Of a DNA stretch of 64,000 bases, positions 36,193-40,953 are shown piece by piece. Position numbers and translations under genes: made by a program. Each line of letters opens with the position of its first letter. Positions within the stretch are counted from its first letter, which is position 1. The notes beneath the pieces are model-generated. The model was not told the DNA's origin and ran no database searches. It saw only the letters and a program-made list of their open reading frames with translations. The stretch comes from a virus. The stretch covers positions 7,577 through 71,576 of IMG/VR virus record IMGVR_UViG_3300001796_000003. One strand, 5' to 3'.

Positions 36193-36717
36193 ATGGATAC
36201 GACTACCCTTAACAATGCTAAGAACTTAGCTAAAAGAATTTACAACGAGACATACGAAATTAAGGTTGAGGTTTTAGAAGGCGGAAAAATGCCGACTAAG
36301 GCTCATGCAACTGATGCTGGCTGGGATCTCTACGCCACTGAAGACATCACTATCTATCCCGGTCAGGTTATGAAGCACCCTCTCAATATTCGTATGGAGC
36401 TCCCGCCGAATACTTGGGCCGAGATTACTTCAAAGAGCGGCCTTGGCGCTAAGGGACTTATGGTCTATGCTGGTGTTATTGACCAGGCTTATAGAGGTAT
36501 TCCGCACGTTGTCTTTACGAACCTCTGGCTCATTGACAGAGTTGATGAAGAAGGCTTCCCGGTAATGCGTACGACGCCTATCGTTATTAAGAAGGGTGAG
36601 AAATTAGCTCAGCTCATCATGAGCCCCTATAATGAGGGTTTCTTTATGACTCAAGTTGATAAGGTGAATACAGACACTGAGCGTAGTACAGGTGGTTTTG
36701 GGTCAACTGGAGTATAA
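36193..36717 (+). CDS. dut: trimeric dUTPase
   Basis: Five motifs: AGWDL, KSGL, GVIDQAYRG, LAQL, RSTGGFGSTG. Confidence 0.95.
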   Translation: MDTTTLNNAKNLAKRIYNETYEIKVEVLEGGKMPTKAHATDAGWDLYATEDITIYPGQVMKHPLNIRMELPPNTWAEITSKSGLGAKGLMVYAGVIDQAYRGIPHVVFTNLWLIDRVDEEGFPVMRTTPIVIKKGEKLAQLIMSPYNEGFFMTQVDKVNTDTERSTGGFGSTGV

Positions 36718-36724
36718 CATACAG

Positions 36725-37453
36725 ATGGCACCTTCAAAACCGACTCCCATTTTAGATGTTTATGACCCTTCTGTACGGGTATCAGCCCTTGATCCAATGG
36801 ATGCAAATGCTGTTTGGCCCATGAATACAGAAGTATGTATTACACGAGTCCCTATTAGAAAACGGGATGGTTTTGATGTTGAAGTCTTTAAGAAGTTTGC
36901 TGCTAAACTTAAACAACATATGATCCCAAACGGGATTGTGTTTCTTATATGTTATGCACCAATTGAGGCCAAAAGTCGGCCCTTTGAGATTGCAAAGGCA
37001 ATGACGGATGCTGGTTTTTTTCACATAGATAATATTGTAATTGAGAAAACCTGGTTTCCGGGTAAACGTTCTGAAGTAAATCTCGTAAACTCACACGAGT
37101 ATGTCTTGCATTTTTGCAATGGCGATGTCTGGAAACTAGATCGACTTCCTATTCGCCGGTATCTTCAGACAGATGAAGATGTGAGTTGTCCGGGTAATAC
37201 ATGGCAAGTAGAAACAGGATCGTTAGATGAAGCTTATCCGGTTGATCTAGCTGAACTCCTAATCAGGATGACGGATTGTTTGCCAGGCAGTATTATTCTT
37301 GACCCATTTGGGGGCGGAACTGCTTCATTGAAGGCGGCTTTGAATCTTGGACATATGTTTTATGGTTTTAACGTAGACAGCAAGATGATGAAAAAGTGCG
37401 ATCAAGTGCTCAAAGAGCATCTCGATAAGACCAGAATTAAGAGGGACAAATAA
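36725..37453 (+). CDS. beta-class N4/N6 DNA methyltransferase-like protein with degenerate catalytic motif
   Basis: HEYVLHF, GNTW, YPVDLAELLI, ILDPFGGGTAS (motif I); motif IV position reads CITRVPI rather than (D/S/N)PPY. Confidence 0.75.
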   Translation: MAPSKPTPILDVYDPSVRVSALDPMDANAVWPMNTEVCITRVPIRKRDGFDVEVFKKFAAKLKQHMIPNGIVFLICYAPIEAKSRPFEIAKAMTDAGFFHIDNIVIEKTWFPGKRSEVNLVNSHEYVLHFCNGDVWKLDRLPIRRYLQTDEDVSCPGNTWQVETGSLDEAYPVDLAELLIRMTDCLPGSIILDPFGGGTASLKAALNLGHMFYGFNVDSKMMKKCDQVLKEHLDKTRIKRDK

Positions 37454-39171
37454 TGCTTTATGAAAAGATGAAGAGCAAAGAGATTACGACCGACAAGACG
37501 GAAATCAAAAAGGTCGTTCAAGAGTCATTGAAGGAAATGGCCACCATTGTGGGTTCTACTCTAGGCCCGGGTGGTCGCACTGTTCTCCTTGAGCGCGATA
37601 ATCTTGCTCCACTTGCTACTAAAGACGGCGTAACGGTGGCTAAGGCTATCGGCATGGCTAACGCTCAGAAGTCTGTTATTGTTGAGGCTGCCAAGGAAAT
37701 CTGTCTACGTACTGCCAAGGAAGCTGGTGACGGAACGACGACGGCCATTGTGCTAGCTAATGCACTTGTTCAGAACGCATCTGAATTCCTGCTCACCAAC
37801 CCCAAATACAACCCCCAACGCATGATTAATGAGCTTAATCACCTCTATCAGAGCGAGATTGTTACGTTTTTAAAGAAACACGCTAAGTCGGTCAATTCCC
37901 GGGAGGAATTGATAAATGTCGCAACCATTAGTGCTAATGGGGATACCATTATTGCTACAGCAGCAGTGGACGCGGTTATGGCAGCCGGAGAAGACGGACA
38001 GGTTCTAGTGGAAGAAGCCGATGATTCCGATATTCGAGTTGAGACGATGGAAGGCTGCATTGTCACCTCTGGTCTTAAGGATCTTGGTCCCATCGGCATC
38101 TCGTTTATGAATGATCGTGCGAATCAGCAGGCAAAGATGGACGAGGGACTTGTGTTCTTGTTTGACGGGTCCCTGAACGACCTTAAGGTTCCCTCTGCCA
38201 TTCAGCAGGCGGTTGAGGGTACTAATCTATACGGCAAGCCCATCATCGTATTTGCTCATAGTTTTGCAGATGTCGTTCTCGATAAGCTAGCAAAGACCAC
38301 AAAGGGTGGATACACTGTAGTTCCCATCAAGACGCCTATGGGCGGTGTGGCCAACTCGCGCGTTATGTTCTTGCATGACTTGGCTGCTTATACAAGTGCC
38401 AAAGTCTATGATCCCGCGAACCTTGATGCTGCTATTGAGTCTGGGCTGGAGTTTGGTTCGTTTAAGACGGCAAAGATTAATCTGTATGAAGCTTTCTTGA
38501 CCTCCGATTCAGATCCTGATCTTCTCGAGACGCGTATCGCTGAACTCAAGAGCATTGCAGCTATTGCCCCTAATGATCGTGAGGCTATGTTCGTTAAGGC
38601 TGCTATTTCTAAGCTTACCGGCGGCGTTTCTACTATCTGGGTAGGCGGTGGATCGGAGCTTGAAGCACGCGAGAAGAAGGCTCGTGTTGAGGATGCCGTT
38701 GAAGCCGTTCGTTCTGCTATTGCAGAGGGAATCGTTCCCGGTGGTTGTGGTGTGCATCTTGTTCTTGCTGACATCATTCGTAGACACGAGAAGCGTCTCC
38801 CGTCTTGGGTCATCATGGAGCAGGCTCTATTAGAACCGTTCAAGCTTCTCCTCTCAAACTGTGGCGAAGATTTTAATGATGTGTGGAATGCGATGGGGGG
38901 ATTTGTTACCGGCACAGACGCACCTCCTACTCACATCTTTGATGCAAGCACGCATCAGGTAGTTCAGCCCGAACAGGCAGGAATTATTGAGCCTGCTAAG
39001 GTGTGTCGTGTAAGCATCGGTAATGCGCTCTCTGTTGCTTCAATTCTCAGCACACTCGGCGGTTTGGTTGTGTCCCCTCGAGATGTTGGCCTTGAGCACC
39101 AGCTGGCCCTCTCGAAATCAGCATTCCGGGACATGATGAGCGATTCGACGGGCGCTGTCGGTCAGGAGTAA
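37453..39171 (+). CDS. groEL: phage chaperonin (GroEL family)
   Basis: TLGPGG, TKDGVTVA, AGDGTTTA, ATISANGD, EDAV.AVRSAI.EGIVPGGG-like, GIIEPAKV motifs; 572 aa. Confidence 0.95.
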   Translation: MLYEKMKSKEITTDKTEIKKVVQESLKEMATIVGSTLGPGGRTVLLERDNLAPLATKDGVTVAKAIGMANAQKSVIVEAAKEICLRTAKEAGDGTTTAIVLANALVQNASEFLLTNPKYNPQRMINELNHLYQSEIVTFLKKHAKSVNSREELINVATISANGDTIIATAAVDAVMAAGEDGQVLVEEADDSDIRVETMEGCIVTSGLKDLGPIGISFMNDRANQQAKMDEGLVFLFDGSLNDLKVPSAIQQAVEGTNLYGKPIIVFAHSFADVVLDKLAKTTKGGYTVVPIKTPMGGVANSRVMFLHDLAAYTSAKVYDPANLDAAIESGLEFGSFKTAKINLYEAFLTSDSDPDLLETRIAELKSIAAIAPNDREAMFVKAAISKLTGGVSTIWVGGGSELEAREKKARVEDAVEAVRSAIAEGIVPGGCGVHLVLADIIRRHEKRLPSWVIMEQALLEPFKLLLSNCGEDFNDVWNAMGGFVTGTDAPPTHIFDASTHQVVQPEQAGIIEPAKVCRVSIGNALSVASILSTLGGLVVSPRDVGLEHQLALSKSAFRDMMSDSTGAVGQE

Positions 39172-39989: not shown

Positions 39990-40348
39990 TGGCTAAGTAT
40001 CGTTTCCAGTGCGAGAAGTGTGGTAACACGGTTGAACGATATGTTGATGTCTCTGTGGAAGCACAACCGTGCAAGAAATGTGGGGGTTTAGCTAAGCGAT
40101 TATTTCCAAATCTTGGATCTAAAAAGGTTACGGAAAAGGTAGATCCCTTTCTTAACATTCGTCAAGAGGAAGATCACAAGAAGCAATTGCAGGACCGTAG
40201 ATCTGAGTACTTTTGGAGTACTGAAGTTCCACGTTTTGTTCAAAGTGGTATTTATTCAACGGAAACAATGCTGGCTGAAGGATGGGTCGTTTACAACGAG
40301 AAAGGAGAGATGGTTATAGCAAAAGGACCGCCTCAAAAGAATAAATGA
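39989..40348 (+). CDS. FmdB-like zinc-ribbon protein
   Basis: MAKYRFQCEKCG...PCKKCG. Confidence 0.75.
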   Translation: MAKYRFQCEKCGNTVERYVDVSVEAQPCKKCGGLAKRLFPNLGSKKVTEKVDPFLNIRQEEDHKKQLQDRRSEYFWSTEVPRFVQSGIYSTETMLAEGWVVYNEKGEMVIAKGPPQKNK

Positions 40349-40953
40349 AAACCTGCTCTAAATGTAAACAAGCACAACCTGTCTCGTATTTTTCTAAAAA
40401 GAAAGCTTCATCAAGTGGATATAAGTCCCATTGTAAACAGTGCGATAAACAACTTAGGGAACAAAACAGAGAAAGAGATAAGGAACTCAAACATAAGCAT
40501 TACTTAAATAATAAAGAAAAATACTTAAAAGCCCATCAAACATATAATGCTCTTCATGCAGGTCATATAAAAGAGTGGAAGCGGAATTATAGATCAACTT
40601 ATGAAAAACAACGCTACAATAACGATGTTTCTCACCGATTGAAGTGTGTTTTAAGGTCTAGATTGTATCAAGCTCTTCAAGAAAATCAAAAGACTGGTTC
40701 TGCTGTAAATGATCTTGGTTGCTCTGTTGAAGAACTTAAAAAGCATTTAGAATCATTGTGGAAGCCCGGCATGTCATGGGATAATTGGTCTAAGGATGGT
40801 TGGCATATTGACCACATTAGACCTTTAAACTCTTTTGACCTCTCTAATTCAGAAGAAGTAAAACAAGCTTGCCATTATTCTAATCTTCAGCCTTTGTGGG
40901 CCGAAGAGAACCTTCAAAAGAGCGACAAGCACAATGCGCATAATCTCAGTTGA
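40345..40953 (+). mobile_element. free-standing HNH homing-endonuclease gene
   Basis: N-terminal CxxC..CxxC; WDNW...WHIDHIRPL..F.L.......ACHYSNLQPLWAEENLQK; AT-rich relative to neighbours. Confidence 0.85.

What the first reader, a model, noticed from the sequence alone, without database searches (positions are those of the whole stretch)
36725..37453. Methyltransferase fold with SAM site kept but catalytic DPPY replaced by TRVP
Seen: beta-class motif order and conserved downstream motifs, motif I as DPFGGGT, but motif IV reads CITRVPI; the ORF is full length with no frameshift. Established: (D/N/S)PP(Y/F) is needed for amino-methylation of A or C. Inference: not a decayed gene but a repurposed protein, for example a site-blocking decoy against restriction, a SAM sink against SAM-dependent defences (type I RM, BREX, SAM-AMP signalling), a dominant-negative partner of host MTases, or an enzyme with different chemistry.
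Basis: partly seen in the sequence, partly recalled or inferred. Interest (0 to 1): 0.6.

Follow-up and report, generated by a model that had tools for sequence, protein, structure and literature searches.

The report
Retooled methyltransferase-like core phage protein
An intact gene in the replication module of a large uncultivated phage folds like a DNA methyltransferase, but its catalytic SPPY/DPPY loop was replaced long ago by a conserved basic loop (R-V-P-I-R-K-R-D-G), so it is probably a repurposed DNA-binding protein or an enzyme with new chemistry, and its real job is untested.

Summary
Profile and multiple alignments place T-R-V-P-I where relatives have (S/D)PPY.

The gene is not decayed:
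- More than 500 metagenomic homologues exist.
- In 37 distinct coding sequences, R41, P43, I44, R45, K46, R47, D48 and G49 never change, although synonymous sites are saturated.
- All proteins without SPPY form one clade (support 100/99). It spans three related lineages of about 120-177 kb phages and derives from ordinary phage orphan SPPY methyltransferases.

The gene is a syntenic core gene (helicase, dUTPase, this gene, GroEL, SbcC). It is the only recognisable DNA methyltransferase-family gene in five complete genomes.

"SAM site kept" is only partly true. The D-P-aromatic-x-G skeleton remains, but the cofactor-contacting Ser, Thr and His are gone. That loop is also among the more variable parts of the protein.

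The lineage carries a dCMP-hydroxymethylase-type thymidylate-synthase homologue and no recognisable glycosyltransferase, so its DNA probably contains 5-hydroxymethylcytosine.

My best reading (about 45%) is a non-methylating, dimeric DNA-binding protein. The main rival (about 25%) is a retooled transferase acting on hydroxymethylcytosine. Anti-defence decoy roles fit poorly. First readers of this scan noted the same family on two other genomes.

The parts
36725..37453 (+). Coding sequence of the methyltransferase-like protein (242 aa, P0001)
   Evidence: ORF and translation. PF01555 at 46.6 bits. 533 homologues. AF2 model with pLDDT 90.3.
36845..36871 (+). Replaced catalytic loop R41-V-P-I-R-K-R-D-G49. 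It stands where canonical relatives have S-P-P-Y-K-x-x-D-G.
   Evidence: Alignments. Invariant in 121 proteins. Invariant in 37 distinct coding sequences that use 2-6 synonymous codons per residue.
37097..37099 (+). E125, the equivalent of active-site Glu211 of N4CMT. It is E or D in all clades and in the canonical relatives.
   Evidence: PMC10406627, section 12.
37214..37240 (+). T164-G-S-L-D-E-A-Y-P172, a lineage-specific invariant loop. It replaces the canonical '..K.HP..FP' segment, and the ribose-binding His is deleted.
37301..37327 (+). Motif I remnant D193-P-F-G-G-G-T-A-S201 (canonical form DPF-x-G-S-G-T-T)
   Evidence: The loop varies within the family, for example DPYMGTQSS and DPFMSSTAA. 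Its variability ranks at the 53rd-83rd percentile of core positions.
37370..37372 (+). N216 at the motif II position. This is the ribose-binding acid, Asp301 in N4CMT. The family has E in 97, N in 21, D in 2 and K in 1 of 121 proteins.
36193..36717 (+). Upstream neighbour: a trimeric dUTPase/DCD-family gene. The adjacency is kept in two of the three lineages.
   Evidence: PF00692 at 84 bits. Synteny.
37453..39171 (+). Downstream neighbour: a phage GroEL-like chaperonin. Its ATG overlaps the methyltransferase-like stop codon (TAATG). The adjacency is kept in all three lineages.

Best explanation
The gene encodes a homodimeric beta-class methyltransferase-fold protein. It descends from ordinary phage orphan SPPY-type DNA methyltransferases.

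In the common ancestor of a family-level group of about 120-177 kb phages that encode GroEL and a DnaE-type polymerase, the catalytic tetrapeptide S-P-P-Y was replaced once by (R/K)-hydrophobic-P-x. In this lineage the loop became R-(V/I)-P-I-R-K-R-D-G. Since then the protein has been a vertically inherited core gene of the replication module.

It has lost the hydrogen-bond acceptor (Ser/Asp/Asn) and the stacking aromatic residue that exocyclic-amine methylation needs. Its cofactor loop is also relaxed. I therefore think it most likely no longer methylates DNA. Instead it would use the retained scaffold (dimer interface, recognition loops, and the new basic loop at the former active site) to bind the phage's own DNA, which probably contains 5-hydroxymethylcytosine, during replication or recombination.

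Shown: the fold, the motif replacement, its single origin, purifying selection, core and syntenic status, and the absence of any other recognisable DNA methyltransferase-family gene in complete genomes. Inferred: loss of methyl transfer, DNA binding, and the cellular role.
For: Position of the replaced motif:
- R41-V-P-I aligns with SPPY/DPPY.
- In N4CMT and CcrM, the Ser/Asp side chain and the following carbonyl hold the target amino group, and the Tyr stacks on the flipped base (PMC10406627, section 12).

Selection:
- R41, P43, I44, R45, K46, R47, D48 and G49 are invariant in 37 distinct coding sequences.
- Median pS is 0.85 and median pN 0.15.
- R41 uses CGA, CGT, CGC, AGG and AGA.

Origin:
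- All non-SPPY proteins form one clade with 100/99 support and internal branches longer than 1 change per site.
- The canonical sister proteins are typical phage or prophage replication-module methyltransferases.

Core status:
- The order dUTPase, this gene, GroEL, SbcC is kept in the related viral loci that reach the neighbouring genes, with this gene at 62-87% identity.
- Two further lineages keep the link to GroEL and the replication genes, and one of them also the dUTPase.

Relaxed cofactor site:
- Canonical relatives at about 25% mutual identity keep DPF-x-G-S-G-T-T and an acidic motif II.
- This family, at 60-90% identity, already varies at positions 195-201 and 216. One complete genome has DPFMSSTAA, and motif II is E, N, D or K.

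No catalytic partner:
- Five complete genomes have exactly one PF01555 gene. Four of them have no PF02086 or PF00145 hit, and all five have no PF13649 hit.

Dimer:
- The homodimer model scores ipSAE 0.78 against a best control of 0.00. Runs agree in at least 92% of contacts and pLDDT is at least 83.
- In the calibration, the mark was reached by 20 of 30 solved homomers and 1 of 23 monomers. My own alignment and a riding SAM make those counts rough.
- Solved beta-class dimers exist, so the pass may reflect likeness to them.
- The interface includes L120, the equivalent of the N4CMT 'tenon' Phe206.
Against: No binding or activity data exist for any member.

Several cofactor-site elements remain and would fit a working enzyme:
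- D193, P194 and G197 are invariant or nearly so.
- The motif II acid is E in about 80% of members.
- The active-site Glu or Asp at position 125 is kept in every clade.

Invariance of specific side chains at the former active site (R41, R45) is also what a new catalytic function would produce.

I could not inspect model coordinates. The positions of R41 and of any ligand are therefore unknown, and DNA binding is inferred only from ancestry and from conserved basic residues. The whole protein is not markedly basic (pI 6.6).
Confidence: 0.45

Rival explanations
1. It is an active SAM-dependent (or SAM-derivative-dependent) transferase whose acceptor has changed. The most attractive version is group transfer to the hydroxyl of 5-hydroxymethylcytosine in phage DNA, which sits next to N4, the atom the SPPY ancestor methylated. 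Arg41 and Glu125 would replace Ser and Tyr in positioning and activating an oxygen nucleophile, or Arg41 would bind an extra carboxylate on the cofactor.
For: - Eight of eight complete or near-complete genomes carrying this gene, and both long contigs of the sister lineage, encode a thymidylate-synthase homologue. It has Asp at the E. coli ThyA N177 position, keeps D169, and has Asp at the L143 position. Its best PDB matches are MilA and T4 dCMP hydroxymethylase (diagnostic residues from PMC13326640, section 28).
- In the one genome where I annotated its neighbours, it sits next to an adenylate-kinase-like NMP kinase.
- No glycosyltransferase of PF00534, PF00535, PF09198 or PF13692 was found, and no other methyltransferase. 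This leaves the gene as the only recognisable candidate for modifying DNA after replication.
- The nearest isolate by GroEL, Myxococcus phage Mx1, lacks both genes.
- D193, P194, G197, E125 and mostly E216 are retained.
- From my own knowledge: class I methyltransferase folds do carry other chemistry, such as CmoB with carboxy-SAM on 5-hydroxyuridine, Tyw2 aminocarboxypropyl transfer, and Trm5 using Arg plus Glu.
Against: - The co-occurrence is not phylogenetically independent, since all carriers are related phages, and Mx1 is a single contrast.
- Cofactor-contact residues are relaxed relative to the rest of the protein.
- The Pfam glycosyltransferase searches can miss novel phage DNA glycosyltransferases, and the PF09198 control matched nothing anywhere.
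- I found no described methoxymethyl-type cytosine in phage DNA in the papers searched.
Confidence: 0.25
2. It is an anti-defence protein. It would act as a site-blocking decoy, a SAM sink against SAM-dependent defences, or a dominant-negative partner that poisons host methyltransferase or restriction complexes.
For: - It is a phage-encoded methyltransferase fold without catalytic residues, kept under selection.
- It is predicted to dimerise through the interface that beta-class enzymes use, so heterodimers with host relatives are conceivable.
Against: - It is a core, syntenic gene of the replication module in three lineages, as conserved as GroEL and dUTPase. From general knowledge, anti-defence genes are usually accessory and variable.
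- A SAM sink should conserve the SAM contacts best, and here they are the relaxed part.
- A genome that replaces cytosine already evades many restriction systems.
Confidence: 0.1
3. It is a SAM-dependent methyltransferase acting on something other than DNA, such as RNA, a nucleotide in the dUTPase and hydroxymethylase pathway, or a protein such as the neighbouring chaperonin's clients.
For: - Adjacency to a dUTPase-family gene is conserved in two lineages, and adjacency to GroEL in three, with overlapping stop and start codons.
- From my own knowledge: ring-nitrogen and oxygen methyltransferases do not need an NPPY-type motif.
Against: - All family-specific elements shared with DNA-acting SPPY relatives are kept, including the recognition-loop residues LDR and C-x-G-N-x-W and the dimer interface.
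- The adjacency is explained by conserved synteny of the whole module.
- The cofactor site is relaxed.
Confidence: 0.1
4. It is still an ordinary N6-adenine or N4-cytosine DNA methyltransferase that tolerates an unusual motif IV.
For: - The Pfam score is above the cut-off and the fold is intact.
- From my own knowledge: the second motif position can be non-proline in active enzymes, as in N-I-P-Y of Erm and N-L-P-Y of KsgA.
Against: - Both critical positions are changed. The acceptor Ser/Asp/Asn is Arg or Lys, which is a donor. The aromatic is Ile, or Thr, Ser, Ala or Val in the sister clade.
- I know of no active amino-methyltransferase with this combination, and none turned up in the literature searches.
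- Sixteen of sixteen canonical relatives keep S-P-P-(Y/F).
Confidence: 0.05

Closest known systems
   Same: These are the sister group in the tree. They have the same length, the same short loop after motif IV, and the same K-x-R-P, (I/L)D, LDR, C-x-G-N-x-W and DPF-x-G elements. They also sit in phage replication modules.
   Different: They keep S-P-P-Y, the '..K.HP..FP' segment and G-S-G-T-T. The protein here has R-V-P-I, a roughly 10-residue deletion that removes the His, and G-G-T-A-S.
Solved beta-class enzymes: N4CMT (8S9M, 8S9N), CcrM (6PBD), M.MboIIA (1G60), M.RsrI (1EG2), M.PvuII (1BOO)
   Same: The fold matches (Foldseek TM 0.66-0.73). The profile alignment covers the whole length (E 1e-29 to 1e-17). 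The predicted homodimer uses the equivalent of the N4CMT 'tenon' residue.
   Different: The catalytic motif is absent. Several residues that contact sinefungin in N4CMT (Ser283, Thr285, His253) have no equivalent. The long DNA-recognition loops after motif IV are missing.
Repurposed methyltransferase-fold pseudoenzymes: METTL14 (EPPL in place of DPPW), ciliate MTA9, DNMT3L, mitochondrial TFB2M (from my own knowledge)
   Same: These are methyltransferase folds kept under selection after losing catalytic residues. They are used as nucleic-acid-binding or scaffolding subunits. METTL3-METTL14 and MTA1 complexes appear as weaker structural matches.
   Different: Most of those work beside an active paralogue. 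Here, complete phage genomes contain no other recognisable DNA methyltransferase-family gene, and the protein is predicted to pair with itself. There is no sequence kinship beyond the shared fold.
T4-type 5-hydroxymethylcytosine pathway (gp42 dCMP hydroxymethylase, gp1 kinase, gp56 dCTPase, glucosyltransferases)
   Same: The lineage has a gp42-like enzyme with the same diagnostic residues, next to an NMP kinase, plus a dUTPase-family pyrophosphatase.
   Different: No recognisable glucosyltransferase was found. T4 has no counterpart of this methyltransferase-like gene. T4 Dam is an alpha-class enzyme with DPPY (my own knowledge).

Membership tests
Beta-class N6-adenine / N4-cytosine DNA methyltransferases (Pfam PF01555) | Class I methyltransferase fold with the circularly permuted order: motif IV first, then motifs V-VIII, the recognition region, motif X and motif I | tested here: met
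   PF01555 scores 46.6 bits against a cut-off of 26.7. The AF2 model has pLDDT 90.3. The top Foldseek hits are all beta-class enzymes. The profile alignment to PDB chains covers the full length.
Beta-class N6-adenine / N4-cytosine DNA methyltransferases (Pfam PF01555) | Catalytic motif IV (D/N/S)-P-P-(Y/F/W/H) | tested here: not met
   R41-V42-P43-I44 aligns with SPPY/DPPY. The Pfam match starts only at profile position 31. The change is family-wide.
Beta-class N6-adenine / N4-cytosine DNA methyltransferases (Pfam PF01555) | SAM-binding motif I (DPF-x-G-S-G-T-T) and an acidic motif II residue that binds the ribose | tested here: inconclusive
   D193, P194, F195 and G197 are kept. The Ser and Thr positions are G198 and A200. 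Motif II is N216 here and E in about 80% of the family. The loop varies within the family. No binding assay is possible with these tools.
Beta-class N6-adenine / N4-cytosine DNA methyltransferases (Pfam PF01555) | Homodimer, as in CcrM, MboIIA and N4CMT | tested here: met
   This is a model only. ipSAE is 0.78 against a best control of 0.00, contacts agree in at least 92% of cases, and pLDDT is at least 83. The pass may reflect likeness to solved dimers.
Beta-class N6-adenine / N4-cytosine DNA methyltransferases (Pfam PF01555) | Methylation of DNA at N6-adenine or N4-cytosine | not testable with these tools
   This needs an in-vitro assay or methylome data from an isolate.
Methyltransferase-fold pseudoenzymes that act as partners of an active paralogue (METTL14 or MTA9 type) | Catalytic residues lost while the protein stays under purifying selection | tested here: met
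Methyltransferase-fold pseudoenzymes that act as partners of an active paralogue (METTL14 or MTA9 type) | An active paralogous methyltransferase encoded alongside it | tested here: not met
   Each of five complete genomes has exactly one PF01555 hit. Four of them have no PF02086 or PF00145 hit, and all five have no PF13649 hit. A host-encoded partner was not tested.
dCMP hydroxymethylase (T4 gp42 type). This is context for the lineage and does not concern this ORF itself. | A thymidylate-synthase fold with the catalytic Cys, Asp at the ThyA N177 position, D169 kept, and Asp at the L143 position | tested here: met
   Eight homologues from related genomes all read D-x-x-C-T ... R-S-(N/C)-D ... 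Y-D-x-P-W. The best PDB hits are MilA (1e-18) and T4 dCMP hydroxymethylase (1e-15), against 3e-6 for true thymidylate synthases. The criteria come from PMC13326640, section 28. The gene is not in the 97 kb record that holds the window, which is about 56% complete.

The most novel reading that the evidence does not exclude
The protein is the missing tailoring enzyme of a new cytosine hypermodification. It would be an N4-cytosine-methyltransferase descendant that now transfers a methyl group, or another SAM-derived group, onto the hydroxyl of 5-hydroxymethylcytosine in phage DNA. That would replace the glycosylation used by T-even phages. Arg41 and Glu125 would form the new active site.
Probability: 0.15. 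Interest if true: 0.85.

Novelty: new variant of a known kind. Interest (0 to 1): 0.55.

Why it matters
Automated annotation calls this family 'DNA modification methylase', which is probably wrong. Methylome predictions for these abundant uncultivated phages would then be misled.

The family gives a clean natural case of a DNA methyltransferase scaffold that was retooled once and then kept for a long time as a core replication-module protein. It also has no active paralogue beside it.

If it turns out to be an enzyme, it may point to an undescribed modification of hydroxymethylcytosine DNA. If it is a binder, it would be a phage counterpart of METTL14-like or TFB2M-like repurposing. Either outcome can be tested with one recombinant protein.

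Tried and rejected
- **Known phages.** Megablast of the locus against known phages found nothing. tblastn of the protein found only remote canonical methyltransferases at 28% identity or less. NCBIfam found no family.
- **Searches for distant members.** Viral-contig scans with P0144, P0138 and P0140 returned no relatives. P0236 gave one fragment. An alignment of distant members was too divergent to search with.
- **Context of distant members.** P0140, P0145 and P0149 lie on contigs of about 1-2 kb, too short to give context.
- **Third lineage.** The 119 kb metagenome record could not be searched whole, so I do not know whether it has a hydroxymethylase.
- **Literature.** Searches for non-canonical or inactive motif IV in phage methyltransferases, and for GroEL together with dCMP hydroxymethylase in phages, found nothing relevant.
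- **ESM Atlas.** It returned only 'putative DNA methylase' clusters.
- **Decay.** Rejected because of the codon evidence.
- **Heterodimer with a phage-encoded active paralogue.** Rejected because complete genomes contain none.
- **5-hydroxycytosine instead of 5-hydroxymethylcytosine.** Disfavoured, because the D169N signature of 5-hydroxy-dCMP synthases is absent.
- **Functional link to dUTPase or GroEL.** Considered because of the conserved adjacency. Not pursued, because the whole module is syntenic, so adjacency adds little.
- **Model coordinates.** I could not inspect them, so the position of Arg41 relative to the cofactor pocket remains unknown.
Full report
**The gene and its place**

The ORF runs from ATG 36725 to TAA 37453 on the + strand and encodes 242 aa (P0001). 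It lies 8 bases after a dUTPase-family gene (36193-36717). Its stop codon overlaps the ATG of a GroEL-like chaperonin gene (TAATG at 37450-37455).

The window is part of a 97 kb IMG/VR virus record judged about 56% complete. The surrounding genes form a replication and recombination module. They include an SF2 helicase, a DnaB-like helicase, a primase, SbcC and a DnaE-type polymerase. No close relative exists among sequenced phage isolates. The nearest isolate by GroEL is Myxococcus phage Mx1, at 32% identity.

**Checking the observation**

Pfam places the protein in PF01555 (46.6 bits against a cut-off of 26.7). The match starts only at profile position 31, which is after the DPPY part of the model.

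An AlphaFold2 model built on a 43-sequence alignment is confident (pLDDT 90.3). Its best Foldseek matches are all beta-class DNA amino-methyltransferases: CcrM, N4CMT, TTHA0409, M.BceJIV, M1.HpyAVI, M.MboIIA, M.RsrI and M.PvuII.

Two alignments agree on the motif IV position:
- a multiple alignment with the nearest canonical relatives;
- a profile-to-PDB alignment.

Both put R41-V42-P43-I44 exactly on S-P-P-Y of N4CMT and on D-P-P-Y of CcrM and MboIIA. Motif I (D193-P-F-G-G-G-T) lies downstream, as expected for the beta class.

**Not decay**

A search of 5.8 billion proteins found 533 homologues. The best 120 are 67-90% identical to P0001. In those proteins E36, I44, R45, K46, R47, D48 and G49 never vary, and R41 and P43 vary once each.

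I extracted 37 distinct coding sequences from 43 related viral loci and compared codons:
- Synonymous sites are saturated (median pS 0.85), while median pN is 0.15.
- The one unsaturated pair gives dN/dS 0.06.
- R41, P43, I44, R45, K46, R47, D48 and G49 are invariant although each uses two to six synonymous codons.
- R41 uses both the CGN and AGR codon families.

This is strong purifying selection on the replaced motif itself.

**Origin and age of the replacement**

An exhaustive representative search and follow-up searches found three deep clades that lack SPPY:
- this one, with T-R-(V/I)-P-I-R-K-R-D-G;
- a sister clade, with F-R-(F/L)-P-(T/S/A/V)-R-(K/R)-K-D-G, 35-40% identical;
- a third clade, with T-K-L-P-A-T-E-K-E-G, about 33% identical.

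Two singletons, P0138 and P0140, also lack SPPY.

In a maximum-likelihood tree all 23 non-SPPY rows form one side of a branch with 100/99 support. Branches between the clades exceed one change per site. The other side consists of short T-S-P-P-Y-K-x-x-D-G-(F/Y)-S proteins. Two of these were checked and are ordinary orphan methyltransferases in phage or prophage replication modules.

The motif was therefore replaced once and then kept. The shared derived features are a basic residue for Ser, a hydrophobic residue for the first Pro, retention of the second Pro, and loss of the aromatic residue.

**Core, syntenic gene**

The 43 viral loci keep the order dUTPase, this gene, GroEL wherever they reach those genes, and the longer ones also show the helicase upstream and SbcC downstream. 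This gene is 62-87% identical across the loci, about as conserved as GroEL (56-88%) and more so than the dUTPase (49-83%).

The sister lineage has the same order on contigs of 85 and 172 kb. The third lineage again places the gene directly before GroEL with overlapping codons.

Complete or near-complete genomes are 153-177 kb, and two have terminal repeats. Each of five complete genomes holds exactly one PF01555 gene. The four searched for PF02086 and PF00145 have neither, and none of the five has a PF13649 hit. A phage-encoded active partner is therefore excluded. This profile fits a core function better than an accessory counter-defence gene.

**The cofactor site is only partly kept**

I used the sinefungin contacts described for N4CMT (PMC10406627, section 12) and the alignments to map each contact onto P0001.

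| N4CMT contact | Role | Equivalent in P0001 |
|---|---|---|
| Asp278, Pro279, Phe280, Gly282 | motif I skeleton | D193, P194, F195, G197 (kept) |
| Ser283, Thr285 | bind the cofactor carboxylate | G198, A200 |
| His253 | binds the ribose | lies in a roughly 10-residue deletion |
| Asp301 | binds the ribose (motif II) | N216 in this copy |

Across the family, position 216 is E in 97, N in 21, D in 2 and K in 1 of 121 proteins.

Canonical relatives that share only about 25% identity with each other keep DPF-x-G-S-G-T-T almost unchanged. This family, at 60-90% identity, already shows DPYCGGTGS, DPYMGTQSS, DPNMGNQST and, in one complete genome, DPFMSSTAA. In the same proteins R-(V/I)-P-I-R-K-R-D-G stays fixed, apart from one conservative K46R change in a single locus. 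By column entropy, the cofactor-contact positions fall at the 53rd to 99th percentile of variability among core residues.

The title's 'SAM site kept' is thus only half right. The former catalytic loop is now under tighter constraint than the cofactor loop.

**Dimer**

A co-fold of two copies with SAM riding along gave ipSAE 0.78, against 0.00 for the best of three controls. Runs agreed in at least 92% of contacts, and pLDDT was at least 83. In the tool's calibration the mark was reached by 20 of 30 solved homomers and 1 of 23 monomers. Those counts hold only roughly here, because my own alignment and a ligand were used.

Solved beta-class dimers exist, so the pass may reflect likeness to them. 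It does not show that this protein dimerises.

The predicted interface covers residues 78-91, 100-107, 111-124, 136-143 and 155-159. It includes L120, which aligns with the N4CMT 'tenon' Phe206. This explains several invariant blocks (PGKRS..NLVNSHE, CPGNTW, HIDN) as interface and not active site. The blocks with no such explanation are the motif IV loop and the lineage-specific T-G-S-L-D-E-x-Y-P loop.

Eight of eight complete or near-complete genomes with this gene, and both long contigs of the sister lineage, encode a divergent thymidylate-synthase homologue (37-57 bits).

Evidence on what that homologue makes:
- Its best PDB matches are CMP hydroxymethylase MilA (1e-18) and T4 dCMP hydroxymethylase (1e-15). 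True thymidylate synthases score only 3e-6.
- All eight copies read D-x-x-C-T ... R-S-(N/C)-D ... Y-D-x-P-W.
- By the diagnostic positions listed in PMC13326640, section 28, this means a cytosine substrate (Asp for N177), no 5-hydroxycytosine signature (D169 kept), and the hydroxymethylase-type residue at L143.
- In the one genome where I annotated the neighbourhood, the gene overlaps an adenylate-kinase-like NMP kinase gene.

The lineage therefore probably replaces cytosine with 5-hydroxymethylcytosine.

No PF00534, PF00535, PF09198 or PF13692 glycosyltransferase was detected in the complete genomes. There are caveats: novel DNA glycosyltransferases can escape these models, and the PF09198 control matched nothing anywhere.

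Mx1 has neither the hydroxymethylase-like gene nor this gene. That is a single contrast and is not independent evidence.

**What it most likely does**

Exocyclic-amine methylation needs a hydrogen-bond acceptor at the first motif position and an aromatic platform at the fourth. Both are gone in every clade, so ordinary m6A or m4C formation is very unlikely (about 5%).

Between a non-catalytic binder and a retooled enzyme the evidence is mixed:
- For the binder: the relaxed cofactor loop, the loss of three specific cofactor contacts, and the variable motif II acid.
- For an enzyme: the retained D-P-x-x-G skeleton, the Glu or Asp at position 125, and the absolute conservation of Arg41 and Arg45 at the old active site.

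I rank the readings as follows:
- About 45%: a dimeric, non-methylating DNA-binding protein of the replication module.
- About 25%: a transferase that acts on hydroxymethylcytosine DNA.
- About 10%: a transferase with a non-DNA acceptor.
- About 10%: anti-defence roles.

The SAM-sink version of the anti-defence reading conflicts with the relaxed SAM site. The decoy version conflicts with core status.

**Comparison, novelty and earlier notes**

The protein passes the fold test for PF01555 but fails the defining catalytic-motif test. It should not be annotated as a DNA methylase, as sources currently do.

It behaves like known methyltransferase-fold pseudoenzymes such as METTL14, MTA9, DNMT3L and TFB2M (my own knowledge), but it lacks an active paralogue beside it. 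I found no description of this family in the papers searched.

First readers of this scan noted the same family on two other genomes (e1-5632575 and e1-5734204), without follow-up. One of them reported an even more degenerate motif I. That agrees with the relaxation I measured, but I did not see that sequence myself.

Noticed in passing
L050:5135-6494 (G004), L051, L056:3942-4739, L057:6582-7325, L127-L130: Related complete genomes carry a thymidylate-synthase homologue with the dCMP-hydroxymethylase signature: Asp at ThyA N177, D169 kept, Asp at L143. In the G004 genome, the one neighbourhood annotated, it overlaps an adenylate-kinase-like NMP kinase gene. The whole phage group probably has 5-hydroxymethylcytosine DNA. 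No standard glycosyltransferase family was detected.
   Followed up: partly
window 36193-36717: The upstream dUTPase-family gene also weakly matches the dCTP deaminase-like model PF22769. In a cytosine-replacing phage it could serve as a dCTPase or dUTPase that supplies dCMP, like T4 gp56 in function. Its specificity was not examined.
   Followed up: no
window 37450-37455; L061:10846-10849: The stop codon of the methyltransferase-like gene overlaps the start of the GroEL-like gene (TAATG here, a 4-base overlap in the third lineage). This gene order is kept in three deep lineages and recalls the groES-groEL arrangement. In other relatives, 0.5-0.7 kb of small genes lies between the two.
   Followed up: partly
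L008:4950-5303, L011:4913-5350, L009:8228-8647 and others: Homologues of the window's HNH gene (40345-40953) sit at different places in relatives. In two loci they lie between the methyltransferase-like gene and GroEL. This is consistent with mobile homing endonuclease genes moving within the replication module.
   Followed up: no
P0157 (473 aa, canonical SPPY relative): One canonical relative carries an insertion of about 200 residues between the recognition region and motif X. It looks like an intein or homing-endonuclease insertion.
   Followed up: no
G006:C1:94505-95317 and G007:C1:145267-145878 (L128, L129): The hydroxymethylase-like matches in two complete genomes each contain one in-frame stop (TAA, TGA) within the matched span. 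This may be a gene boundary, or a broken or recoded copy.
   Followed up: no
P0001 (ESM Atlas); OR576727.2 (Mx1): One look-alike Atlas cluster is mostly bacterial, with Myxococcota the commonest taxon. The nearest isolate by GroEL is Myxococcus phage Mx1. This is a weak lead that the group infects Myxococcota or their neighbours.
   Followed up: no
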